Positions 4,453 through 11,642 of a stretch of DNA of 64,000 nt are shown piece after piece; within the stretch, counting starts at the first letter, position 1, and each line of letters begins with the position of its first letter. A program made the position numbers and the translations under genes. The notes under the pieces were generated by a model. The model was not told the DNA's origin and did not search any database. It worked only from the letters and a program-made list of their open reading frames with translations. Source of the stretch: Nitrosopumilus sp. (GTDB lineage Archaea; Thermoproteota; Nitrososphaeria; Nitrososphaerales; Nitrosopumilaceae); contig OZ244732.1 in the NCBI GenBank assembly GCA_965219345.1, positions 1,600,001 through 1,664,000 of the forward strand, given 5' to 3'.

Positions 4453-4752
4453 ATGAGGTTTTTATCCAATTTTAGAAAAGACTTGCAAACTGAAAAAAGA
4501 AAAAAAGCTGCTCAGATTAACGGCAAGAATCTCAAAGGATTATTAAAAAAATTCAAAGAAGAAAGAGACAGGATAGAAAAAGAGACTGGAAACAGGCCTG
4601 AAATCGATAATACTACACAGATGTTTATGCAAAAAATCCTAAACGTATGGATTTCCGAAGGAAAAGAAATTGATGAAGAGAAGTTCTGGGCAGAAGTTGA
4701 TTATAATAGGCAGTTTACCCATCCAGTTGAATTTTATGAGATAAAACGCTAG
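4453..4752 (+). CDS. hypothetical protein
   Basis: 99-aa ORF, core-like composition. Confidence 0.65.
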   Translation: MRFLSNFRKDLQTEKRKKAAQINGKNLKGLLKKFKEERDRIEKETGNRPEIDNTTQMFMQKILNVWISEGKEIDEEKFWAEVDYNRQFTHPVEFYEIKR

Positions 4753-4767
4753 CTTAATCCTAATTTA

Positions 4768-4986
4768 TTATGACAAATTTGCAACAAATTGATAAATTAC
4801 TACAGTACCTATTATTATCCCAATCACACTTCCAATAATCACCACATATTTTTTGAGCGCTTCACTTTTTTCAAATTTAATATTGGCTATCCGTTTTGCC
4901 TCTGAGTGATGTCTTTCGCAACGAAGTTTACCTTCATATTCCCGAATTCCCTTTTCATCACATTCATCACATTTTCGATCATCCAT
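4768..4986 (-). CDS. small membrane protein with N-terminal CxxC...CxxH
   Basis: CDEC..CERH plus C-terminal hydrophobic helix. Confidence 0.5.
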   Translation of the reverse strand: MDDRKCDECDEKGIREYEGKLRCERHHSEAKRIANIKFEKSEALKKYVVIIGSVIGIIIGTVVIYQFVANLS

Positions 4987-5220
4987 AATGATATTTTGAA
5001 TTTCACCAATGTTTAAAATTTCTGATTAACTTACGATCAACTCTAAATAATGTCCAAAAATAGACTAATTAGATTAGTTTGGAATAATTTTACTCAAAAA
5101 AATAGACTGGAAGGAAAGTTTTGATGACTGATTTACATATAATAACAAAATAGGCATTAATTATAACAAAAATTGGACGAAAATTTACTTAGTATCAAAT
5201 TAGAAGAAGTAATGAACAAC

Positions 5221-5890
5221 TCATCTCAAAACCCTACAATACATCAAAAATGATGCAATGTTGACAAATGCCAGATAGTTTTCTGCGATTCTTTCATATC
5301 GAATTCTTGTTCTGTGAAAGCCATTCTTCAGCCAGTCAAAGAACCGCTCCACTACAAACCTGGTCTTGTTGTAATTGCCTTGCAGATTATTTTTCAGTGC
5401 CAGTTTAGAATTATTCCTGTAGGGGATACAGCAACCAATTCCATGACATCTGAGATAATTTCTAATGTATGCGGCATCGTAACCCTTGTCAGCATAGCAT
5501 GTTACAACTTGCTGAATCATGGAATCATCACCTGCAAAATCTGAGATTGATTCTATCACGTCAATGAATTTTGTGGAATCATGCTCGTTTGCGGAACTGA
5601 TTACAATGGATATCGGCAAGCCGTTTTGTTCTACCGCAACATGCAGTTTTGTGCCTAGAATCTTCTTAAATCCGTCATATCCTAGTTTGTTGCCACTTCT
5701 TCTTTACCGTGAATGGATGAAGAGTCAACTGATATCTTTTGCAGATTGATCTTATCTTGCCTGTGTGCTGATTGAATCGCACATCTGAAAACCTTCTTCC
5801 AAATCCCTTTTTGTTGCCAGGAGTTTAATCTTCTGCTTGCGGTAGAATCATCGCCGTATTGTCTTGGCATCTCACCCCATCAGCATCCTT
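5221..5890 (-). mobile_element. IS5-family transposase remnant (two frames, 5' end lost)
   Basis: GC*WGEMPRQYG, ISVDSS, GYDGFKKILGTKLHVAV, YADKGYD and RFVVERFF.WLK motifs split over two frames; fused upstream to an IS110 fragment. Confidence 0.88.
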
Positions 5891-6015
5891 TCTGCAAACT
5901 CACGGGCGCCGTCTTCGGTGTTGGGGTACTGCCCCCTCTCGAGAACTCTTCCCCTGCCGTCCACTATGCAGTAGTCGCACTTTCTCTTTGCAATGTCTAT
6001 TCCTATGCTGTTCAT
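5872..6015 (-). pseudogene. IS110-family recombinase N-terminal fragment (47 aa, absent from ORF track)
   Basis: Hand translation MNSIGIDIAKRKCDYCIVDGRGRVLERGQYPNTEDGAREFAERM: GIDIAK first-Asp motif of the DEDD RuvC domain; preceded by an AGGAGGTGA Shine-Dalgarno. Confidence 0.82.
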
Positions 6016-6039
6016 CCTATCCTATCACCTCCTTTCGGA

Positions 6040-6166
6040 TGTGTTGACGGATCGGAAGCTGCAAGCACCCATCATGGCGCGAAGCCCAATTACACAGCAG
6101 CTCGGATTGCCCCATTCATAACTGAGGGCGCGAAGCCCAAACGAAATAAGGGGTCGATCCATCACA
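6040..6166 (-). ncRNA. candidate IS110 bridge RNA, copy 1 (transcribed strand uncertain)
   Basis: Outer stem enclosing two stem-loops, each with a large internal loop and a GGC-TTCGC-GCC apical hairpin. Confidence 0.6.
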
Positions 6167-6192
6167 GCTACTGCGCAGGGGTGGTTATCATG

Positions 6193-6284
6193 GTATGAGG
6201 TCACGTCCCCCTTGCAGATAGGCACGGAAACGCTTTGAACCGTTCGAATTTACGCCTATCATGAAGGTACAGGTGACCTCATAC
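6193..6284. mobile_element. 92-bp MITE
   Basis: Perfect 12-bp TIR GTATGAGGTCAC/GTGACCTCATAC; 8-bp TSD TTATCATG at 6185-6192 and 6285-6292; empty site present in the other IS110 end. Confidence 0.9.
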
Positions 6285-6442
6285 TTATCATGTGTTCATA
6301 ACTGAATAAAGAGATAATCCAATATACTTGCAGGCGTCGCGCATTACAATGCATTCTGGCATGTCAGATTCAGGCGTTAGAAGATCCTCATCTACCTAGC
6401 TTACCAAAGTTTATACCGTCATTGATGCCAAGTTAGCTACTC

Positions 6443-7357
6443 TTGGGTTATGATGATCTTTATCCACTTGATTTATCAAAATGCTTCAAGGACTGGCTTT
6501 ATCGGCATTCCCGCCTACGCGCGTTTTACGTGGATATAGTGTACAGGCAGACCGCGTTTCGGAGGATCACCGCGCCACTGAGGGCGATGCCGGATTTTGT
6601 CATCATAGGCGCGCAAAAGTCTGGGACGACTTCGCTGTATGATTATATCACAAGTCACCCCTCAGTGGCGCGCGCGCGCTATAAGGAGGTGCATTATTTT
6701 TCCCTGCGGCACAAGTATGGCAAGCTGTGGTACCGTTCCAACTTCCAGACCAACTTCTCGCGGCGCCGCTTTTACGAGAAGACAGGGCAAAAGCTCCTCA
6801 GCGGGGAGGCCAGCCCGTACTATCTCTTCCACCCTGCAGTCCCGGACAGGATGAAGGCTGTCCTGCCAGATGTGAAGCTCATCGTGATCTTGCGCAACCC
6901 CGTTGACCGCGCATACTCCCACTACCACCACACATCAAGGAAGAACCAAGAACCGTTGTCGTTTGAGGAGGCCATCAGGGCAGAGGAGGCGCGGTGCACG
7001 GGGGAGAGGGAGCGACTGCTCAGGGATCCGGACTTTGTCCCCCTACACTACCGCAACCACTCGTACCTTTCCAGAGGCGTCTACGCCGACCAGCTGGAAA
7101 ACTGGTTCAAGTACTATGGCAGGGAACAGTTCTTGATCCTGGCCACTGAAGACCTCCGCAAGGATCCGCAGCGTACACTGGACCGCGTCTTTGACTTTCT
7201 GGGGGCAACTCCATTACGTGTCGGCGGCTTGAGGGATCGCAATGTTGGAGACTATAAGGAGATGGGCAAGGAGACGCGCAAATTCCTGATCGAGTACTTT
7301 AGGCCATACAACCAGAGGCTGTACAAGATGCTGCATCGCAGCTTTGATTGGAACTAG
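6443..7357 (+). CDS. PAPS-dependent sulfotransferase (heparan sulfate 3-O-ST-like family)
   Basis: IIGAQKSGTTSLY 5'-PSB and LRNPVDRAYS 3'-PB motifs; GC-rich. Confidence 0.92.
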   Translation: MGYDDLYPLDLSKCFKDWLYRHSRLRAFYVDIVYRQTAFRRITAPLRAMPDFVIIGAQKSGTTSLYDYITSHPSVARARYKEVHYFSLRHKYGKLWYRSNFQTNFSRRRFYEKTGQKLLSGEASPYYLFHPAVPDRMKAVLPDVKLIVILRNPVDRAYSHYHHTSRKNQEPLSFEEAIRAEEARCTGERERLLRDPDFVPLHYRNHSYLSRGVYADQLENWFKYYGREQFLILATEDLRKDPQRTLDRVFDFLGATPLRVGGLRDRNVGDYKEMGKETRKFLIEYFRPYNQRLYKMLHRSFDWN

Positions 7358-7638
7358 CGTGGTGGCGTAGTTTCCGTGGCTCATAATTAATCACAAAAAC
7401 GCCAACAATTACCAACCAAACGATCTAGATCACAGCAGGACTCACATACACACACACACTGCATGAGAATCGAATATTCAGCGATACCGGCAGGGGACAA
7501 GTTCCTGCCGGGCACGAGCAGGGCGTACCTACGCAGGTCATCTTCCGTTCTGGCGGTGCCAGAACCGGCAGACTCATCCATCTCATCTTCTGGATTCTTG
7601 GATCCTTGCACATATGATTACTAATCTCTTATACACGC

Positions 7639-8502
7639 TCAAGATATTATCGCTGATTCCACATAGATGGCAGTGTCCGTGTTCCTTAGTAGCGAGCGTT
7701 TCATGCCTAGTCGGCCAAGAACTTTCTCTTTCTGATACCTTTTGTTCCACGAGGCCACTTGGTCGTCCTTGCATTCAACTCCGGAGGACAGATATCCTTT
7801 GATGTAGTGCAAATTCCATCTTCTGATTGTTACAAGTATTACGAACCATAGTGAGAACCCCCTTTGTTTGAACAATTTGCCACGCCGTTCTATCGTCTGC
7901 CTGTTGTAGTTGGTGCCAATATTTCGTTTGAACTGCATAGGTATGTCGGTGTATACTGCAGATCGAAACCCTGTGAGGGAGGCATGTGTGATAAGGGATG
8001 CGCCGTTCAGGTGGGAGGTTCTAGAGGGGTGTTGGAATTTTTTCAACCATTTGACGTCAACTATCGCGCCGGATTCGCCCACAAGTATGAGCTTGTCTTG
8101 TAGGTCTTGGCCGCACGCTATGACCACCCCGTCACGGCGCATCCTTTTTGTGATTTCGCCAATATACGAATTGGAAAGGACTGTGTCTCCATCTACGCAT
8201 ATTACGTAGTCAGTCCCCCCCCCCACGATTGCCTCGTTGAAGAGACTTTGCCGTAGTTCGAAAAAACGTCCAGACAGATAATCGTGTGGATAAGGGTCGT
8301 GGTGGGTGATTTCGATTCCACTTATAGAATCAAGTATTTCCTTTGTGCCGTCGGTGGATCCGTCATTGGCTACCAATATACGTGAGGCGGGAGGATCCTG
8401 CGCTTTTATGGCATCAATTACGCTCCGTATGTGGTTCTCTTCGTTTCGGATCACAAGAAATGCATTCCACGTGTAACTACCTGACTGCATTTTACTACAC
8501 AT
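7639..8502 (-). CDS. glycosyltransferase family 2 (GT-A)
   Basis: RNEE, ANDGSTDGT and VDGD (DxD) motifs. Confidence 0.85.
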   Translation of the reverse strand: MCSKMQSGSYTWNAFLVIRNEENHIRSVIDAIKAQDPPASRILVANDGSTDGTKEILDSISGIEITHHDPYPHDYLSGRFFELRQSLFNEAIVGGGTDYVICVDGDTVLSNSYIGEITKRMRRDGVVIACGQDLQDKLILVGESGAIVDVKWLKKFQHPSRTSHLNGASLITHASLTGFRSAVYTDIPMQFKRNIGTNYNRQTIERRGKLFKQRGFSLWFVILVTIRRWNLHYIKGYLSSGVECKDDQVASWNKRYQKEKVLGRLGMKRSLLRNTDTAIYVESAIIS

Positions 8503-8717
8503 AAGATGCTGTCAACAGTTAAATATTTTATGCAAAGACTGAGGTTGGTGCGTAATTCTAGTCTATCCCGTTCACACACATCTCCCGCCATGTCTTCACC
8601 GACGGATTTTCCGGGTGTGTCAGGCCTTCAGCTGCCTTGTACACATCGTTTCCCAGTAGATGGACCCGTCTAGGCGCATGCCGCGCGTGCTAGGTCGCCA
8701 TAGGTCGGTATCGGTAT

Positions 8718-8756
8718 CCGGAGCTCAATCCAGTCGAGATCCAGTGGCGCGGGGAG
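8718..8756 (+). mobile_element. tiny IS630-like transposase relic
   Basis: Translates PELNPVEIQWR, matching the IS630 SPELNPIE..W catalytic-Glu motif; no intact ORF. Confidence 0.45.
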
Positions 8757-8841
8757 TTTACATCCTTTCACTGTATACCAACCGTTAACGCGCAAGAATC
8801 GATCATCATGATCAGTGATAAGCATAGGACTTATCGGATGT

Positions 8842-9765
8842 TTATCTATCCCAATCAAAACTGCATCGTAGCAGTTTGGATAGTCTCTTGTTGTGAGGTT
8901 TAAAGTACTCGATTAGGAATTTGCGCGTCTCTTCGCTCATCTTCTCATAGTTTCCAATGTTAAGGGATTTCGTTTTTTCTACTTGAAAAGAAGGCACTCC
9001 CAAGAAATCAAAGACTTTATCTAGCGTCTGCTGTCGATTTTCACGAAGATCTTCTGCAGTCAAAATCAAAAACTTTTCTCTGCCATAGTACTTGAACCAG
9101 TTTTCCAGCTGATCGACGTAAATGCCATTGGCAAGGCACAAATTAGTAGAATCTCTGTTGTGAATATAATCTGGATCTGTTATCATACGTTTCCTTTCTC
9201 TGACGCGCTGTTCTTCTTCCAACTTGATGACTTTCTCAAATGAGATTGATTCTCTATTCAATCTCAATAACATATGATAGTGAGAGTACGCCCGATCAAC
9301 TGGATTGCGCAAAATCACGATCAGTTTTACGTCAGGCAAGAGCGCTTTCATCCTGCTTGGGGCGGCCTGCCAAAAAAGGTAGTTTGGACTAGCTTCTCCA
9401 CTGAGGAGTTTTTTCTTTGTTTTTTTGTAGAAATAGTACCTTTGTATCTTGGTTGGAAAATTAGAACGGTACCACAGTTTGCCAAATCTATATCCAGTAG
9501 AAAAATATTTTAGCTCTTTTGCAGGTGTGGGAACAATATCTGGATGTTTAACAATAAAATCATACAACGATGTGGTTCCGGATTTCTGAGCGCCGATAAT
9601 AACAAAATCAGGCAATTCCCTTAAGGGCGAGGTAATTATTTGAAACCTACCCGAGTTGCGCGCTTTCGGGTCCGTACCTATCCTTGGGTTATAGAATACG
9701 TGCAAAAGAGGGTGCCGATGCAACCACTTACTTGCATTCTCCCTGAGATATCCCAATATTGACAC
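8842..9765 (-). CDS. PAPS-dependent sulfotransferase, paralog of 6443-7357
   Basis: Same GAQKSGTTSLY and LRNPVDRAYS motifs; C-terminus FDWDR vs FDWN. Confidence 0.92.
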   Translation of the reverse strand: MSILGYLRENASKWLHRHPLLHVFYNPRIGTDPKARNSGRFQIITSPLRELPDFVIIGAQKSGTTSLYDFIVKHPDIVPTPAKELKYFSTGYRFGKLWYRSNFPTKIQRYYFYKKTKKKLLSGEASPNYLFWQAAPSRMKALLPDVKLIVILRNPVDRAYSHYHMLLRLNRESISFEKVIKLEEEQRVRERKRMITDPDYIHNRDSTNLCLANGIYVDQLENWFKYYGREKFLILTAEDLRENRQQTLDKVFDFLGVPSFQVEKTKSLNIGNYEKMSEETRKFLIEYFKPHNKRLSKLLRCSFDWDR

Positions 9766-9800
9766 TAATCAATCGATGTTATTTGTATGTCGCGCGTACG

Positions 9801-10010
9801 TCAGTTATGAACACATGATAACCACCCCCTGCGCAGTAGTTGTGATGGATCGACCCCTTATTTCGTCTGGGCTTCGCGCCCTCAGTTATGAATGGGGCAA
9901 TCCGAGCTGCTGTGTAATTGAGCTTCGCGCCATGATGGGTGCTTGCAGCTTCCGATCCGTCAACACATCCAAAAGGAGGTGATAGGATAGGATGAACAGC
10001 ATAGGAATAG
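9801..10010 (+). mobile_element. IS110 non-coding end, copy 2, with first 6 codons (MNSIGI)
   Basis: Inverted match to 5997-6305; SD and ATG at 9992; cut at 10010 by an IS6-type end. Confidence 0.85.
9841..9967 (+). ncRNA. candidate IS110 bridge RNA, copy 2 (transcribed strand uncertain)
   Basis: GATGGATCG/CGATCCGTC outer stem; CCCC/GGGG and AGCTGC/GCAGCT stems close two internal loops, both capped by TTCGC hairpins. Confidence 0.6.
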
Positions 10011-10512
10011 GGTTCTGTTGGGTTATGGGGATATAGAATGAAATATGAATTTTCTCCTAATTAAAAAATCATACCTACACAGAATCCTTGCTTAAACTTG
10101 CATTCTGAATTATTGTCTTCCATTTGTTTAATCCATCAACCTCAATCATAGAGGCCTGTGCTGGAGTTTGACCCTTCAATGCTCCGTGCTTTTTTGTAAA
10201 ATTATAGTAGACTCTCATGCTATCCGAAATACCAGTATCCATCTTTTTGAGACCTCTGAATACCTTTTCCCTGTCCCTGATTTCACCGTTTAATCTTTCC
10301 ATCTTGTTGTTGTTCATGTCACCTTGCAGATGAATATGCCTAATGTGGTTGGTATCACTGCCAAAGATTTTCCTGCTTGACTTCATGTAAGCTTGCAAAC
10401 CATCTGTTATGAAATTGCGTGGATTCTTGCCAGCTTGTAATTTTGTTAATCTCAATAGGCTGTCTGCATTATGATGAAATTTGTTATCTGCAATCTCTTT
10501 TTTATCTCCCAA
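10011..10512 (-). mobile_element. IS6-family remnant (C-terminal DDE part plus terminal repeat)
   Basis: ITDG, NNKMERLNGEIRDR..VFRGLK and YYNF motifs; GGTTCTGTTG at 10011 resembles IS257/IS6 TIR starts. Confidence 0.82.
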
Positions 10513-10558
10513 TTCAACTATTTTTTTTCGCCTACTAATTTTTGAAGATGAGATGTGA

Positions 10559-11103
10559 TCACATCATCAGTAAATCCAAGAATGTCTGTAATTTTACTTA
10601 AACTAATCTGATTTCCAGCTTTCAAAATAAAATTAATACGGTCTATTACTTTTTCTGCTGCTTTTGATTCAGCTTCTTTCAGCATCTTAACTTGTTCTGA
10701 TTCTTTTGAAAAGAAAGTTGCTCTTTTTCAATTGTATCAATAATACTTTTTAGATCATCAAATCGTATTGACTTGTCAAGATAGCGGCATACTCCGTACG
10801 AATAAGTTCTTTTATTCCTGCATCTTCCTTCTCGGTAGCAGTTTCCAAAATTACTCGCACATCTGGTTGAATTTCAATCATCTGTGTCAAAACTGAACGT
10901 GCATCCATGTCGGGTAATATAAAATCAAGTAATACAAATGGTTGTTTATTGTTAGTAATTAGTTCATTGAATGTATGAACCGCACCAGAACCTGTCTCAC
11001 AAATATGATTATCAGTATATCCTAATTTTTCCAAATAATTTTTTAAAAGAATACCAACAGCAGGGTTATCCTCTACAATCAGAACACTCTCTTTTGAGCT
11101 CAT
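10559..11103 (-). pseudogene. response-regulator receiver protein, frameshifted
   Basis: IVEDN and LLDFILPDMD; the receiver C-terminus (YGVCRYLDKSIRFDDLKSII) continues in another frame from about 10798. Confidence 0.75.
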
Positions 11104-11642
11104 TTTTGACTTTCCAGCATAATGTTGAGTGAAAATTATTTATGAAATAAAGAGTGTTTTGTTTAGCTTATGACATGAATTTTTACACCATTTTGATAGA
11201 ATAGTACATCATCCCAAGTCTGGAAATTTTTTGATGAATATACCTGAATTTCAGGATAATTATTGAAAGATTCTTTGTATAATATATTAAGAAATTATGA
11301 CAATAAAGGTATAACATATGATAAGATTCTAATTAATTATTAATTTATCATTTAAAAAAACCAGATGCAGAAAAAATAATTACGTAATTGAAAAGAATAC
11401 TCTAAAAAACTTGTAGAAGTAAAAATTTAAACTCGACAAGCATCAGAAAAAGGTAAATAATTTTTAAATCAAGCTTTTAGTTTCTAAAAATTCTAAATAA
11501 GAAATGTTAATCGTTAAAATAAACATAGGGACCAAATCCAATGTCACCAAAAATTTTACAAATACATGAATACGTTGAATAGAAAATTCTAGTAATCAAT
11601 ACAGCACAAAGGACTAAATGTGTCAAAAAAATTCAATATTTA

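What the first reader, a model, noticed from the sequence alone, without database searches (positions are those of the whole stretch)
9801..9991. Archaeal IS110 non-coding end folds as a two-loop bridge RNA whose loop matches its own junction
Seen: an outer stem (GATGGATCG/CGATCCGTC) encloses two parallel arms, CCCC-[TTATTTCGTCT]-GGGC-TTCGC-GCCC-[TCAGTTATGAAT]-GGGG and AGCTGC-[TGTGTAATTG]-RGC-TTCGC-GCC-[ATGATGGGTGCTT]-GCAGCT. The loop segment TCAGTTATGAA (9882-9892) is identical to the last 11 bp shared by both copies (9801-9811 and 6295-6305). The other loop's TGTGT is complementary to the adjacent ACACA. Known: IS621-type bridge RNAs have target- and donor-binding internal loops that base-pair with the recombination sites. 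Inference: a thaumarchaeal bridge RNA with readable guides. The strand relationship is not the simple IS621 one, so the RNA may be antisense (GCGAA loops) or use a different guide geometry.
Basis: partly seen in the sequence, partly recalled or inferred. Interest (0 to 1): 0.85.

Follow-up and report, generated by a model that had tools for sequence, protein, structure and literature searches.

The report
Fossil archaeal bridge RNA, IS1111-type
The stretch is the dead left end of an archaeal jumping gene whose leader RNA carries readable guide loops for choosing insertion sites, a known kind of RNA-guided system in an arrangement not yet described for archaea.

Summary
The 11-mer occurs 4 times in the window, twice per copy, against 0.06 expected. 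95.8% of cells pair against 80.8% in shuffles, and 17 of 24 pairs show compensatory changes.

It is a bridge/seek RNA in the 5' non-coding end of an IS110-family element. The 47-codon remnant hits PF01548, and full-length relatives hit PF01548, PF02371 and NF033542.

Arm 1 reads the target. Its 3' side equals the left flank, then a TG core, then the first bases of the IS. Its 5' side is the reverse complement of TG plus the right flank. No shuffle reached the observed match for 75 left and 20 right junctions (0 of 2000 each). Two uninterrupted target sites fix the core. Arm 2 reads the element's own ends.

The RNA is sense: 108 G·U against 18 A·C cells. Guide order, subterminal inverted repeats and 7/3-bp terminal extensions are IS1111-type. 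Only the upstream position of the RNA gene is IS110-type.

Both window copies are relics, with no intact transposase and no right end.

This is a new member of a known kind, of moderate interest.

The parts
9801..9807 (+). Left target half-site (flank DNA) of the right copy. It is identical to the variable part of the arm-1 3' loop side.
   Evidence: In relatives this flank covaries with the loop (75 junctions, 0 of 2000 shuffles reach the observed sum).
9808..9814 (+). 7-bp left terminal extension of the IS. It is the TG core at 9808-9809 followed by AACAC.
   Evidence: The core was fixed by two uninterrupted sites in a relative. In 19 of 20 relatives the inverted repeat starts at the 8th base counted from the core.
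9815..9828 (+). Left subterminal inverted repeat (ATGATAACCACCCC).
   Evidence: Relatives carry its reverse complement 3 bp before the right-hand TG. No right-end partner exists in this genome.
9844..9961 (+). Bridge/seek RNA core: the outer stem (9844-9852 with 9953-9961) enclosing both arms.
   Evidence: RNAalifold consensus. Covariation counts. Covariance model R1 scores it 152.5 bits.
9858..9868 (+). Arm 1, 5' loop side: the guide for the right target half, pairing with the top strand. It is decayed here. It ends in TCT, where 58 of 75 relatives have CAT.
9882..9893 (+). Arm 1, 3' loop side: the guide for the left target half, pairing with the bottom strand. It reads flank bases, then TG, then AAT.
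9911..9920 (+). Arm 2, 5' loop side. Its first 5 nt are complementary to IS bases 9811-9815.
   Evidence: own 4.09 of 5 against 3.51 for cross pairings, and 335 of 20000 shuffles reach the observed value. The support is weak.
9932..9944 (+). Arm 2, 3' loop side: the same sense as the element's right end (last 2 nt of the repeat, 3-nt extension, TG).
   Evidence: 17 of 19 relatives match at 7 of 7, with the right end located independently of this loop.
9975..10010 (+). Shine-Dalgarno-like GGAGGTG and the first 6 codons of the transposase (ATG at 9992). Homology with the other copy ends at 10010, where another IS begins.
6046..6163 (-). Bridge/seek RNA core of the left, inverted copy.
   Evidence: 98% inverted repeat. 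R1 scores it 149 bits.
5875..6015 (-). 47-codon N-terminal remnant of the IS110-family transposase, cut off next to an IS5-like ORF.
   Evidence: translation. (PF01548 at 29.8 and 31.7 bits, cut-off 29).
6193..6284 (.). 92-bp MITE-like insertion splitting the left copy's subterminal repeat. It is flanked by the duplicated CATGATAA (6185-6192 and 6285-6292).
   Evidence: (I7, I8, I13). The right copy shows the uninterrupted form.
6285..6305 (-). Terminus of the left copy: part of the repeat, the 7-bp extension, and the 7-nt target flank at 6299-6305.
   Evidence: I8, 21 nt, 100%..

Best explanation
Positions 9801-9991, and the inverted twin at about 6025-6305, are the left end of an IS110-family insertion sequence of Nitrosopumilaceae. 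Its termini and guide order are of the IS1111 type.

The 5' non-coding region is read on the transposase strand. It forms a three-way junction: an outer stem closing two hairpin arms, each with a large internal loop.

Arm 1 is the target-binding loop.
[quoted passage not shown] Three further bases (AAU) match the first bases of the IS. I infer a role like the IS621 handshake guide.

Arm 2 is the donor-binding loop.
- Its 3' side has the sense of the right IS end.
- The start of its 5' side pairs with bases 4-8 of the left IS end.

By analogy with IS621 and ISEc11 (inferred, not tested here), the DEDD recombinase uses this RNA to bring the circular IS junction and a TG-containing target together and to recombine them without a duplication.

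In this window the system is dead.
- Both copies keep the RNA gene but only 47 and 6 codons of the transposase.
- There is no right end and no cognate transposase elsewhere in the genome.
- The core-pairing bases of arm 1 are mutated.
- One copy is split by a MITE.
For: Structure:
- RNAalifold on 23 homologues gives exactly this fold, with 24 pairs of which 17 have compensatory changes.
- 95.8% of cells pair against 80.8% in shuffles. 0 of 500 shuffles reach any of the five measures. Slid controls give 31-45%.
- On 76 distinct model-aligned hits, 96.0% of cells pair and 20 of 24 pairs are compensatory.

Strand:
- 33 G·U against 5 A·C cells, and 108 against 18.

Protein:
- PF01548 on the window remnant. 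PF01548 plus PF02371 on relatives.
- NF033542, 'IS110 family RNA-guided transposase', at 226-234 bits against a cut-off of 140.

Target guides, by an unbiased scan:
- Left: 75 distinct junctions, own 6.55 of 9 against 5.06 for cross pairings, 0 of 2000 shuffles.
- Right: 20 junctions, own 7.4 of 10 against 5.25, 0 of 2000 shuffles.
- 12 of the 13 strong right matches start exactly 3 bp after the inverted repeat.
- An earlier curated count agrees: 18 right junctions, 5.33 of 7 against 2.19, 0 of 20000.

Other points:
- Near-identical copies in one genome differ in their loops, and each matches its own flanks (L061, L062, L065, L070).
- Two uninterrupted copies of the target repeat (L088, L089) lack the element and fix TG as the shared core.
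- Donor loop: 17 of 19 elements match at 7 of 7.

Relic status.
Against: - No RNA data exist. No listed run is on record as RNA, so transcription, strand and RNA ends are inferred only.
- Nothing was reconstituted.
- The single-sequence fold is only marginally better than shuffles (z -1.77).
- The arm-2 5' side signal is weak (335 of 20000 shuffles).
- 5 of 18 curated right junctions match poorly, with 1-4 of 7 (L013, L015, L061, L065, L071). In the scan, 5 of 20 score 5 or less of 10. These may be decayed copies or later rearrangements.
- Sequences are related, so shuffle counts overstate independence.
- The A3 alignment is fitted to the model.
- The core rests on empty sites from one relative subfamily in one genome.
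- The handshake-like role of AAU is an analogy only.
Confidence: 0.85

Rival explanations
1. The RNA is transcribed from the opposite strand, antisense to the transposase, and follows IS621-type guide geometry.
For: The apical loops would read GCGAA on the other strand.
Against: - Stems contain 108 G·U but only 18 A·C cells. The count on A2 is 33 against 5. On the other strand the G·U pairs would be mismatches.
- The antisense single fold is weaker: -57.8 kcal/mol, z -0.90.
- By my own strand bookkeeping (reasoning, not a tool test), the antisense RNA would not give the IS621 arrangement either.
- The IS621-type arrangement tested on the sense RNA scores at background: 5.05 of 9 and 4.0 of 10.
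Confidence: 0.03
2. The fold is only a cis-regulatory 5' leader of the transposase mRNA (translation or stability control). The similarity to the flank is a by-product of a protein-determined target preference.
For: The fold ends about 14 nt before the Shine-Dalgarno-like GGAGGTG. Earlier literature proposed regulatory roles for IS110 ends (PMC11208160, passages).
Against: Copies with almost the same protein and leader have different loop bases, and each tracks its own left and right flanks. A protein-only preference would not make the loop co-vary with the flank on both strands.
Confidence: 0.05
3. The two inverted RNA-bearing ends are still used. With a recombinase supplied in trans, they invert or mobilise the 3.5-kb sulfotransferase / glycosyltransferase / sulfotransferase cassette that they bracket.
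For: Both copies face the cassette with the same 7-nt flank and are 98% identical. IS110 recombinases can invert and excise DNA (PMC11208160, passages).
Against: - No cognate transposase and no third R1 hit exist in this genome.
- No right end exists.
- The core-pairing bases of arm 1 are mutated in both copies, differently in each.
- One copy's inverted repeat is split by a MITE.
- Contigs from 4 DNA runs showed no inversion joint, but they break at the repeats, so this says little.
Confidence: 0.05

Closest known systems
IS1111-family elements with seekRNA (ISEc11, ISPa11, ISKpn4; Siddiquee et al. 2024, PMC11187229, passages read)
   Same: - DEDD transposase.
- Subterminal inverted repeats, here 10-16 bp.
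- Terminal extensions of 7 bp on the left and 3 bp on the right.
- No duplication at the target.
- An RNA with the top-strand complement 5' of the bottom-strand complement, the two overlapping on the target.
- Natural reprogramming among relatives.
   Different: The non-coding region and RNA gene lie upstream of the transposase gene, not downstream. Both loops are closed by one outer stem. The host is an archaeon. Full-length relatedness of the transposase to IS1111 itself was not tested.
IS621 bridge RNA (Durrant et al. 2024, PMC11208160; Hiraizumi et al. 2024, PMC11208158; passages read)
   Same: - The RNA is encoded in the left end, upstream of the recombinase and on the same strand.
- There are two internal loops: the target loop first, the donor loop second.
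- Each loop addresses both DNA strands around a 2-nt core.
- Extra bases next to the core pairing match the other partner, like handshake guides.
- The recognised target is about 14 nt.
   Different: - The sides are swapped. [quoted passage not shown] Here the 3' side does.
- The core is TG rather than CT.
- The subterminal repeats are long.
- The protein is only distantly similar: phmmer E 1.5e-8 to 8WT6, over the C-terminal part only.
IS1111-type exceptions with an upstream or double non-coding region (ISMtsp17, ISHvo10, ISAcp5), named in PMC11187229 (passage)
   Same: They combine IS1111-type features with an upstream non-coding region. The best plasmid-borne relative of the Nitrosopumilus transposase is haloarchaeal at 33% identity. 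It has a perfect 16-bp subterminal repeat and about 200-nt non-coding regions on both sides.
   Different: In the passages I read, the RNAs of these exceptions are not described. Model R1 does not hit the haloarchaeal element (best E 0.2). I could not confirm which ISfinder name, if any, that element bears.
[quoted passage not shown]
   Same: Several Nitrosopumilaceae copies sit about 9-10 bp inside the end of another repeated element.
   Different: The target elements and the hosts differ. I did not identify what the targeted repeat is.

Membership tests
IS110-family RNA-guided (DEDD) transposon | N-terminal DEDD_Tnp_IS110 domain (PF01548) | tested here: met
   The window remnant of 47 aa scores 31.7 bits against a cut-off of 29, and 29.8 bits in the genome scan. 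Relatives score 81.2 and 93.1 bits.
IS110-family RNA-guided (DEDD) transposon | C-terminal Transposase_20 domain (PF02371) and the full-length NF033542 model | tested here: inconclusive
   The feature is absent from the window because both ORFs are truncated. It is present in full-length relatives: PF02371 at 80 and 64.6 bits, and NF033542 at 226-234 bits against a cut-off of 140.
IS110-family RNA-guided (DEDD) transposon | A structured non-coding-end RNA with two internal loops | tested here: met
   17 of 24 and 20 of 24 pairs are compensatory, and 0 of 500 shuffles reach the observed values.
IS110-family RNA-guided (DEDD) transposon | One loop is complementary to both strands of the target, with the two matches overlapping at a core | tested here: met
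   left 75 junctions and right 20 junctions, 0 of 2000 shuffles each.. Empty sites.
IS110-family RNA-guided (DEDD) transposon | The other loop is complementary to the element's own ends (the donor) | tested here: met
   3' side: 17 of 19 match at 7 of 7. 5' side: weak, 335 of 20000 shuffles.
IS110-family RNA-guided (DEDD) transposon | The RNA is made, binds the recombinase and is required for movement | not testable with these tools
   No listed run is on record as RNA.
IS110 group proper (IS621-type bridge RNA) | [quoted passage not shown] | tested here: not met
   The mirror control scores at background: 5.05 of 9 and 4.0 of 10. The opposite arrangement is the one that matches.
IS110 group proper (IS621-type bridge RNA) | Long non-coding region upstream of the transposase gene | tested here: met
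   There are about 180 nt between the core and the ATG in the window, and the same in relatives.
IS110 group proper (IS621-type bridge RNA) | No subterminal repeats, or only very short ones (2-3 bp) | tested here: not met
   Repeats of 10-14 bp were found in 20 of 20 elements whose right end was located through them, with at most 3 errors in 14.
IS1111 group (seekRNA type) | Subterminal inverted repeats of about 11-13 bp | tested here: met
   In the window only the left repeat survives (9815-9828), and there is no partner in the genome.
IS1111 group (seekRNA type) | Terminal extensions of 7 bp on the left and 3 bp on the right | tested here: met
   The repeat starts at the 8th base from the core in 19 of 20 elements. 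12 of 13 strong right-flank matches begin 3 bp after the repeat. The core was fixed by empty sites.
IS1111 group (seekRNA type) | [quoted passage not shown] | tested here: met
   set against the published statement read.
IS1111 group (seekRNA type) | Long non-coding region downstream of the transposase gene | tested here: not met
   The RNA lies upstream. The downstream ends are about 170-300 nt and were not examined for structure.
IS1111 group (seekRNA type) | Transposase related over its full length to that of IS1111 | not tested
   I fetched no named IS1111-group reference protein. Only distant solved relatives were seen (IS621 and ISCro4).
Any Rfam family | A match to a curated covariance model | tested here: not met
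   A cmscan of 5500-10500 at E up to 1 gave one chance hit elsewhere (a snoRNA model, E 0.87) and none on the fold.

The most novel reading that the evidence does not exclude
This Nitrosopumilaceae lineage is a natural intermediate between the two published architectures. Its termini and guide polarity are of the IS1111 type, but the guide RNA gene sits upstream as in IS110, with both loops closed by one stem. If it is active, guide polarity travels with the recombinase and termini class, not with the position of the RNA gene. It would also be a compact RNA-guided recombinase from mesophilic archaea: a protein of about 350 aa and an RNA core of about 120 nt, with a code of 5 + TG + about 7 target bases.
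Probability: 0.35. Interest if true: 0.6.

Novelty: new member of a known kind. Interest (0 to 1): 0.45.

Why it matters
The finding shows that RNA-guided IS110/IS1111 recombination can be read directly from sequence in ammonia-oxidising archaea. The RNA model hits 28 of 151 sampled genomes of the family and 11 of 27 genera, with 19 or more matches in some genomes. One of the 28 is the unpublished genome G138.

It gives a worked guide code. Two observations stand out:
- Within one genome, copies have been naturally reprogrammed to different sites.
- Many copies sit inside the ends of other mobile elements.

It also separates two properties that the literature has tied together, the position of the RNA gene and the order of the guides.

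For the window itself the message is sobering. The two copies are fossils that mark old insertions next to a sulfation/glycosylation cassette. They are not a working system.

Tried and rejected
1. Single-sequence folding. It is marginal and did not reproduce the whole design, so I relied on homologues.

2. Rfam. There was no match on the fold.

3. First core hypothesis, 'AT'. I took it from the overlap of the two arm-1 sides (note). I rejected it after two uninterrupted target copies showed that the shared bases are TG.

4. Fixed-register scoring from the model alignment. The alignment shifts by 2 nt in some subfamilies, so about 35 of 78 rows were read out of register. The shuffles still never reached the observed sums (0 of 20000). 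I replaced these counts with the register-free scan.

5. RNA evidence. No RNA holder was listed among 6 runs.

6. Laying contigs of 4 DNA runs on 4500-11500. The contigs break at the repeats, and no piece spans the stretch. No inversion joint was listed. This decides nothing.

7. Own-genome searches:
- No further copy of the leader.
- No right-end repeat. The only exact hits are the two left ends.
- 24 occurrences of the 9-nt flank plus core, 4 of them the window's own (two junctions and two loop copies). None is followed by the right half predicted from the decayed loop.

8. Model R1 on a haloarchaeal relative. There was no hit.

9. I did not build a transposase tree against named IS1111 and IS110 references, because no tool let me fetch references by name. 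That membership feature stays untested.

Their element lists may already contain such archaeal elements.

11. Claims about what is in print rest (listings) and on passages read. None of the passages or listed titles and abstracts that I saw describes an archaeal bridge RNA. The preprint 10.1101/2024.06.21.599552 counts 662 archaeal IS110 recombinases. The preprint 10.64898/2026.10.21.760802 clustered bridge-RNA loci over bacterial and archaeal genomes, so the family may be in its database.

Full report
**What is in the window**

Positions 9801-10010 (+) and about 5875-6305 (-) are two inverted copies of the same sequence. The arms 5997-6181 and 9826-10010 are 98% complementary over 185 nt. The termini 6285-6305 and 9801-9821 are identical over 21 nt.

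Each copy runs outward into a Shine-Dalgarno-like GGAGGTG and an ATG.
- The left copy keeps 47 codons (MNSIGIDIAKRKC...) before a stop next to an IS5-like ORF.
- The right copy keeps 6 codons before another IS begins at 10011.
- The 47-residue remnant passes Pfam's cut-off for DEDD_Tnp_IS110: 31.7 bits against 29.
- The left copy is also split by a 92-bp MITE-like insertion at 6193-6284, flanked by a duplicated CATGATAA.

The 11-mer occurs 4 times in the window against 0.06 expected.

**Is the fold real?**

On its own the sequence folds only slightly better than shuffles (z -1.77). Rfam has nothing for it. The evidence comes from relatives.

DNA and protein searches found homologous leaders next to full-length IS110-family genes in other genomes of the same genus and family. 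Their public records are titled Nitrosopumilus sp., Nitrosopumilaceae archaeon and Cenarchaeum sp..

It has 24 pairs, of which 17 show compensatory changes.

Counted on that alignment:
- 95.8% of cells pair, against 80.8% in column shuffles.
- 0 of 500 shuffles reach any of the five measures.
- Sliding one strand gives 31-45% pairing.

A covariance model built from the alignment (R1) found 84 matches in the loci I held. On 76 distinct rows, 96.0% of cells pair and 20 of 24 pairs are compensatory. That alignment is fitted to the model, so it leans towards the structure.

**Which strand?**

The stems hold 33 G·U against 5 A·C cells in the first alignment, and 108 against 18 in the larger one. 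G·U pairs become A·C mismatches on the other strand.

**What the loops read**

*Arm 1, 3' side.* Across relatives, the variable bases of this side are the same as the bases just left of the element. They are followed by an almost invariant TGAAT (67 of 75 rows).

*Arm 1, 5' side.* It ends in CAT in 58 of 75 rows. Its reverse complement is the sequence just right of the element.

*Curated counts.* A curated count gave 5.45 of 6 variable left positions matching for the element's own guide, against 2.63 for other elements' guides. That covered 29 elements, and 0 of 20000 shuffles reached the observed sum. For the right side, 18 elements gave 5.33 of 7 against 2.19, again with 0 of 20000.

In this repeat the right end was located only through the inverted repeat, not through any loop.

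| Side | Distinct flanks | Own guide | Other guides | Shuffles reaching the observed sum |
|---|---|---|---|---|
| Left | 75 | 6.55 of 9 | 5.06 | 0 of 2000 |
| Right | 20 | 7.4 of 10 | 5.25 | 0 of 2000 |

In the same analysis, 12 of the 13 strong right matches begin exactly 3 bp after the repeat.

*Poor matches.* They exist. 5 of 18 curated right junctions score 1-4 of 7 (L013, L015, L061, L065, L071). 5 of 20 score 5 or less of 10 in the scan.

*Reprogramming within one genome.* Four copies in one genome are 96-99.6% identical (L061, L062, L065, L070). They carry different loop bases, and for most of them each matches its own flanks. Six or more copies in another genome share one guide pair and sit in the same repeated target.

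**Where exactly does the element end?**

I first took AT as the core. Several copies sit inside the end of another repeated element. In the same genome, two copies of that repeat are uninterrupted (L088, L089). Comparing occupied and empty sites shows that the bases shared by target and element are TG.

Counted from that TG:
- The left end has a 7-bp extension (TG plus five bases), and then an inverted repeat beginning ATG.
- The right end has the repeat ending CAT, a 3-bp extension, and then the target's TG.

The arm-1 3' side therefore reads about 5 target bases, the TG, and then three bases (AAU) that equal the first bases of the element. The 5' side reads one base of the right extension, the TG, and 6-8 target bases. 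Bases beyond the core that match the other DNA partner recall the handshake guides of IS621 (PMC11208158, passages). That role is my inference.

In the window:
- 9801-9807 is target flank.
- 9808-9809 is the core.
- 9808-9814 is the extension.
- 9815-9828 is the left repeat.

**Arm 2**

Its 3' side has the sense of the right end: the last two bases of the repeat, the extension and TG. 17 of 19 elements match at all 7 positions. The three sequence classes (6, 6 and 5 elements) are each paired with their own kind.

The first five bases of its 5' side are complementary to element bases 4-8. It holds only weakly across relatives: 4.09 of 5 against 3.51, with 335 of 20000 shuffles reaching the observed value.

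**Comparison with what is known**

[quoted passage not shown] Here the sides are swapped. The IS621 arrangement scores at background.

Siddiquee et al. report this reversed order for IS1111-family seekRNAs. They describe that family by four features: 11-13-bp subterminal repeats, extensions of 7 bp on the left and 3 bp on the right, no duplication, and a non-coding region that is usually downstream. They name a few exceptions with an upstream or double non-coding region: ISMtsp17, ISHvo10 and ISAcp5 (PMC11187229, passages).

The Nitrosopumilaceae elements meet every one of these features except the position of the non-coding region. Whether the transposase groups with IS1111 over its full length was not tested.

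Other comparisons:
- NCBIfam files the proteins as 'IS110 family RNA-guided transposase' at 226-234 bits.
- The nearest plasmid-borne relatives are haloarchaeal, at 33% identity.
- One of those relatives has a perfect 16-bp subterminal repeat and non-coding regions on both sides, but no R1 match.
- Solved structures are distant: IS621 at E 1.5e-8 and ISCro4 at E 3e-8.

**Distribution**

R1 matches 28 of 151 sampled genomes of the window's family, including the window's own genome. That covers 11 of 27 genera, with 19 or more matches in some genomes. One of the 28 is the unpublished genome G138. R1 also matches 7 of the 12 metagenome loci.

**State of the window's copies**

- The genome holds only these two copies of the leader.
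- It has no right-end repeat.
- It has no cognate transposase. The only intact IS110-family ORF, at C1:1485919-1486353, has no R1 match.
- The arm-1 5' sides end in TCT and TTT where relatives have CAT. So the core pairing is lost, differently in each copy.

They are relics. No RNA run is on record for this DNA. Contigs of four DNA runs break at the repeats.

**Verdict**

The puzzle about strands is resolved by the published IS1111-type guide order. This is a new, archaeal member of a known kind. It has an unusual but not unprecedented combination of features, and in this window it is a fossil.

Noticed in passing
window 6193-6284: A 92-bp MITE-like insertion with about 12-bp terminal inverted repeats and a duplicated CATGATAA. 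It splits the left copy's subterminal repeat. The right copy shows the empty site at 9814-9821.
   Followed up: partly
window 6306-9800: The two relic ends bracket two diverged sulfotransferase paralogues in opposite orientation (6443-7357 + and 8842-9765 -, 72-79% alike at the DNA level) and a glycosyltransferase-like ORF (7639-8502 -). Both relics face this cassette with the same 7-nt flank.
   Followed up: partly
window 8215-8224: A run of ten C (G on the coding strand) lies inside the glycosyltransferase-like ORF. One low-depth contig of run X4 lacks 3 bases at 8215. One contig of X1 has two substitutions beside it, at 8212 and 8214.
   Followed up: no
L018/L031, L020/L032, L036, L021/L034 (genomes G002 and G018): Solo fragments of about 130 nt hold the left end plus arm 1 and stop inside arm 2, with no transposase gene behind them. 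Two of them (L020 and L036) are a local duplication. It is unclear whether they are deletion remnants or something else.
   Followed up: no
L055, L056, L058 and L086-L089 (G061); L126-L131 (G141): Many copies sit about 9-10 bp inside the end of another repeated element that begins TAGCC/GTGTTGCATAA... The IS appears to target the termini of a second mobile element. I did not identify that element.
   Followed up: partly
L059 about 2790-2830: One copy is inserted at the end of a long (GCT)n/(GTT)n microsatellite, and its left guide reads TTGTTGTTG. The guide is matched to a simple repeat.
   Followed up: no
L069 (record CBDAOT010000002.1): A full-length element of this family, with matching left and right guides, lies on a 51-kb contig whose record is titled Candidatus Poribacteria bacterium. 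This is either a binning error in a sponge metagenome or a transfer between sponge symbionts.
   Followed up: no
L055 1421-1627 (+) and 5431-5637 (-): Two full copies of the element lie in inverted orientation about 2.6 kb apart, with a shared segment between them. The arrangement resembles the window's bracket, but with intact elements.
   Followed up: no
window 10011-10720: The IS that truncates the right copy begins GGTTCTGTTGGG... It carries a transposase split over two frames (10075-10512 and 10518-10685, -). An element with a similar end abuts the full-length relative in L010.
   Followed up: no
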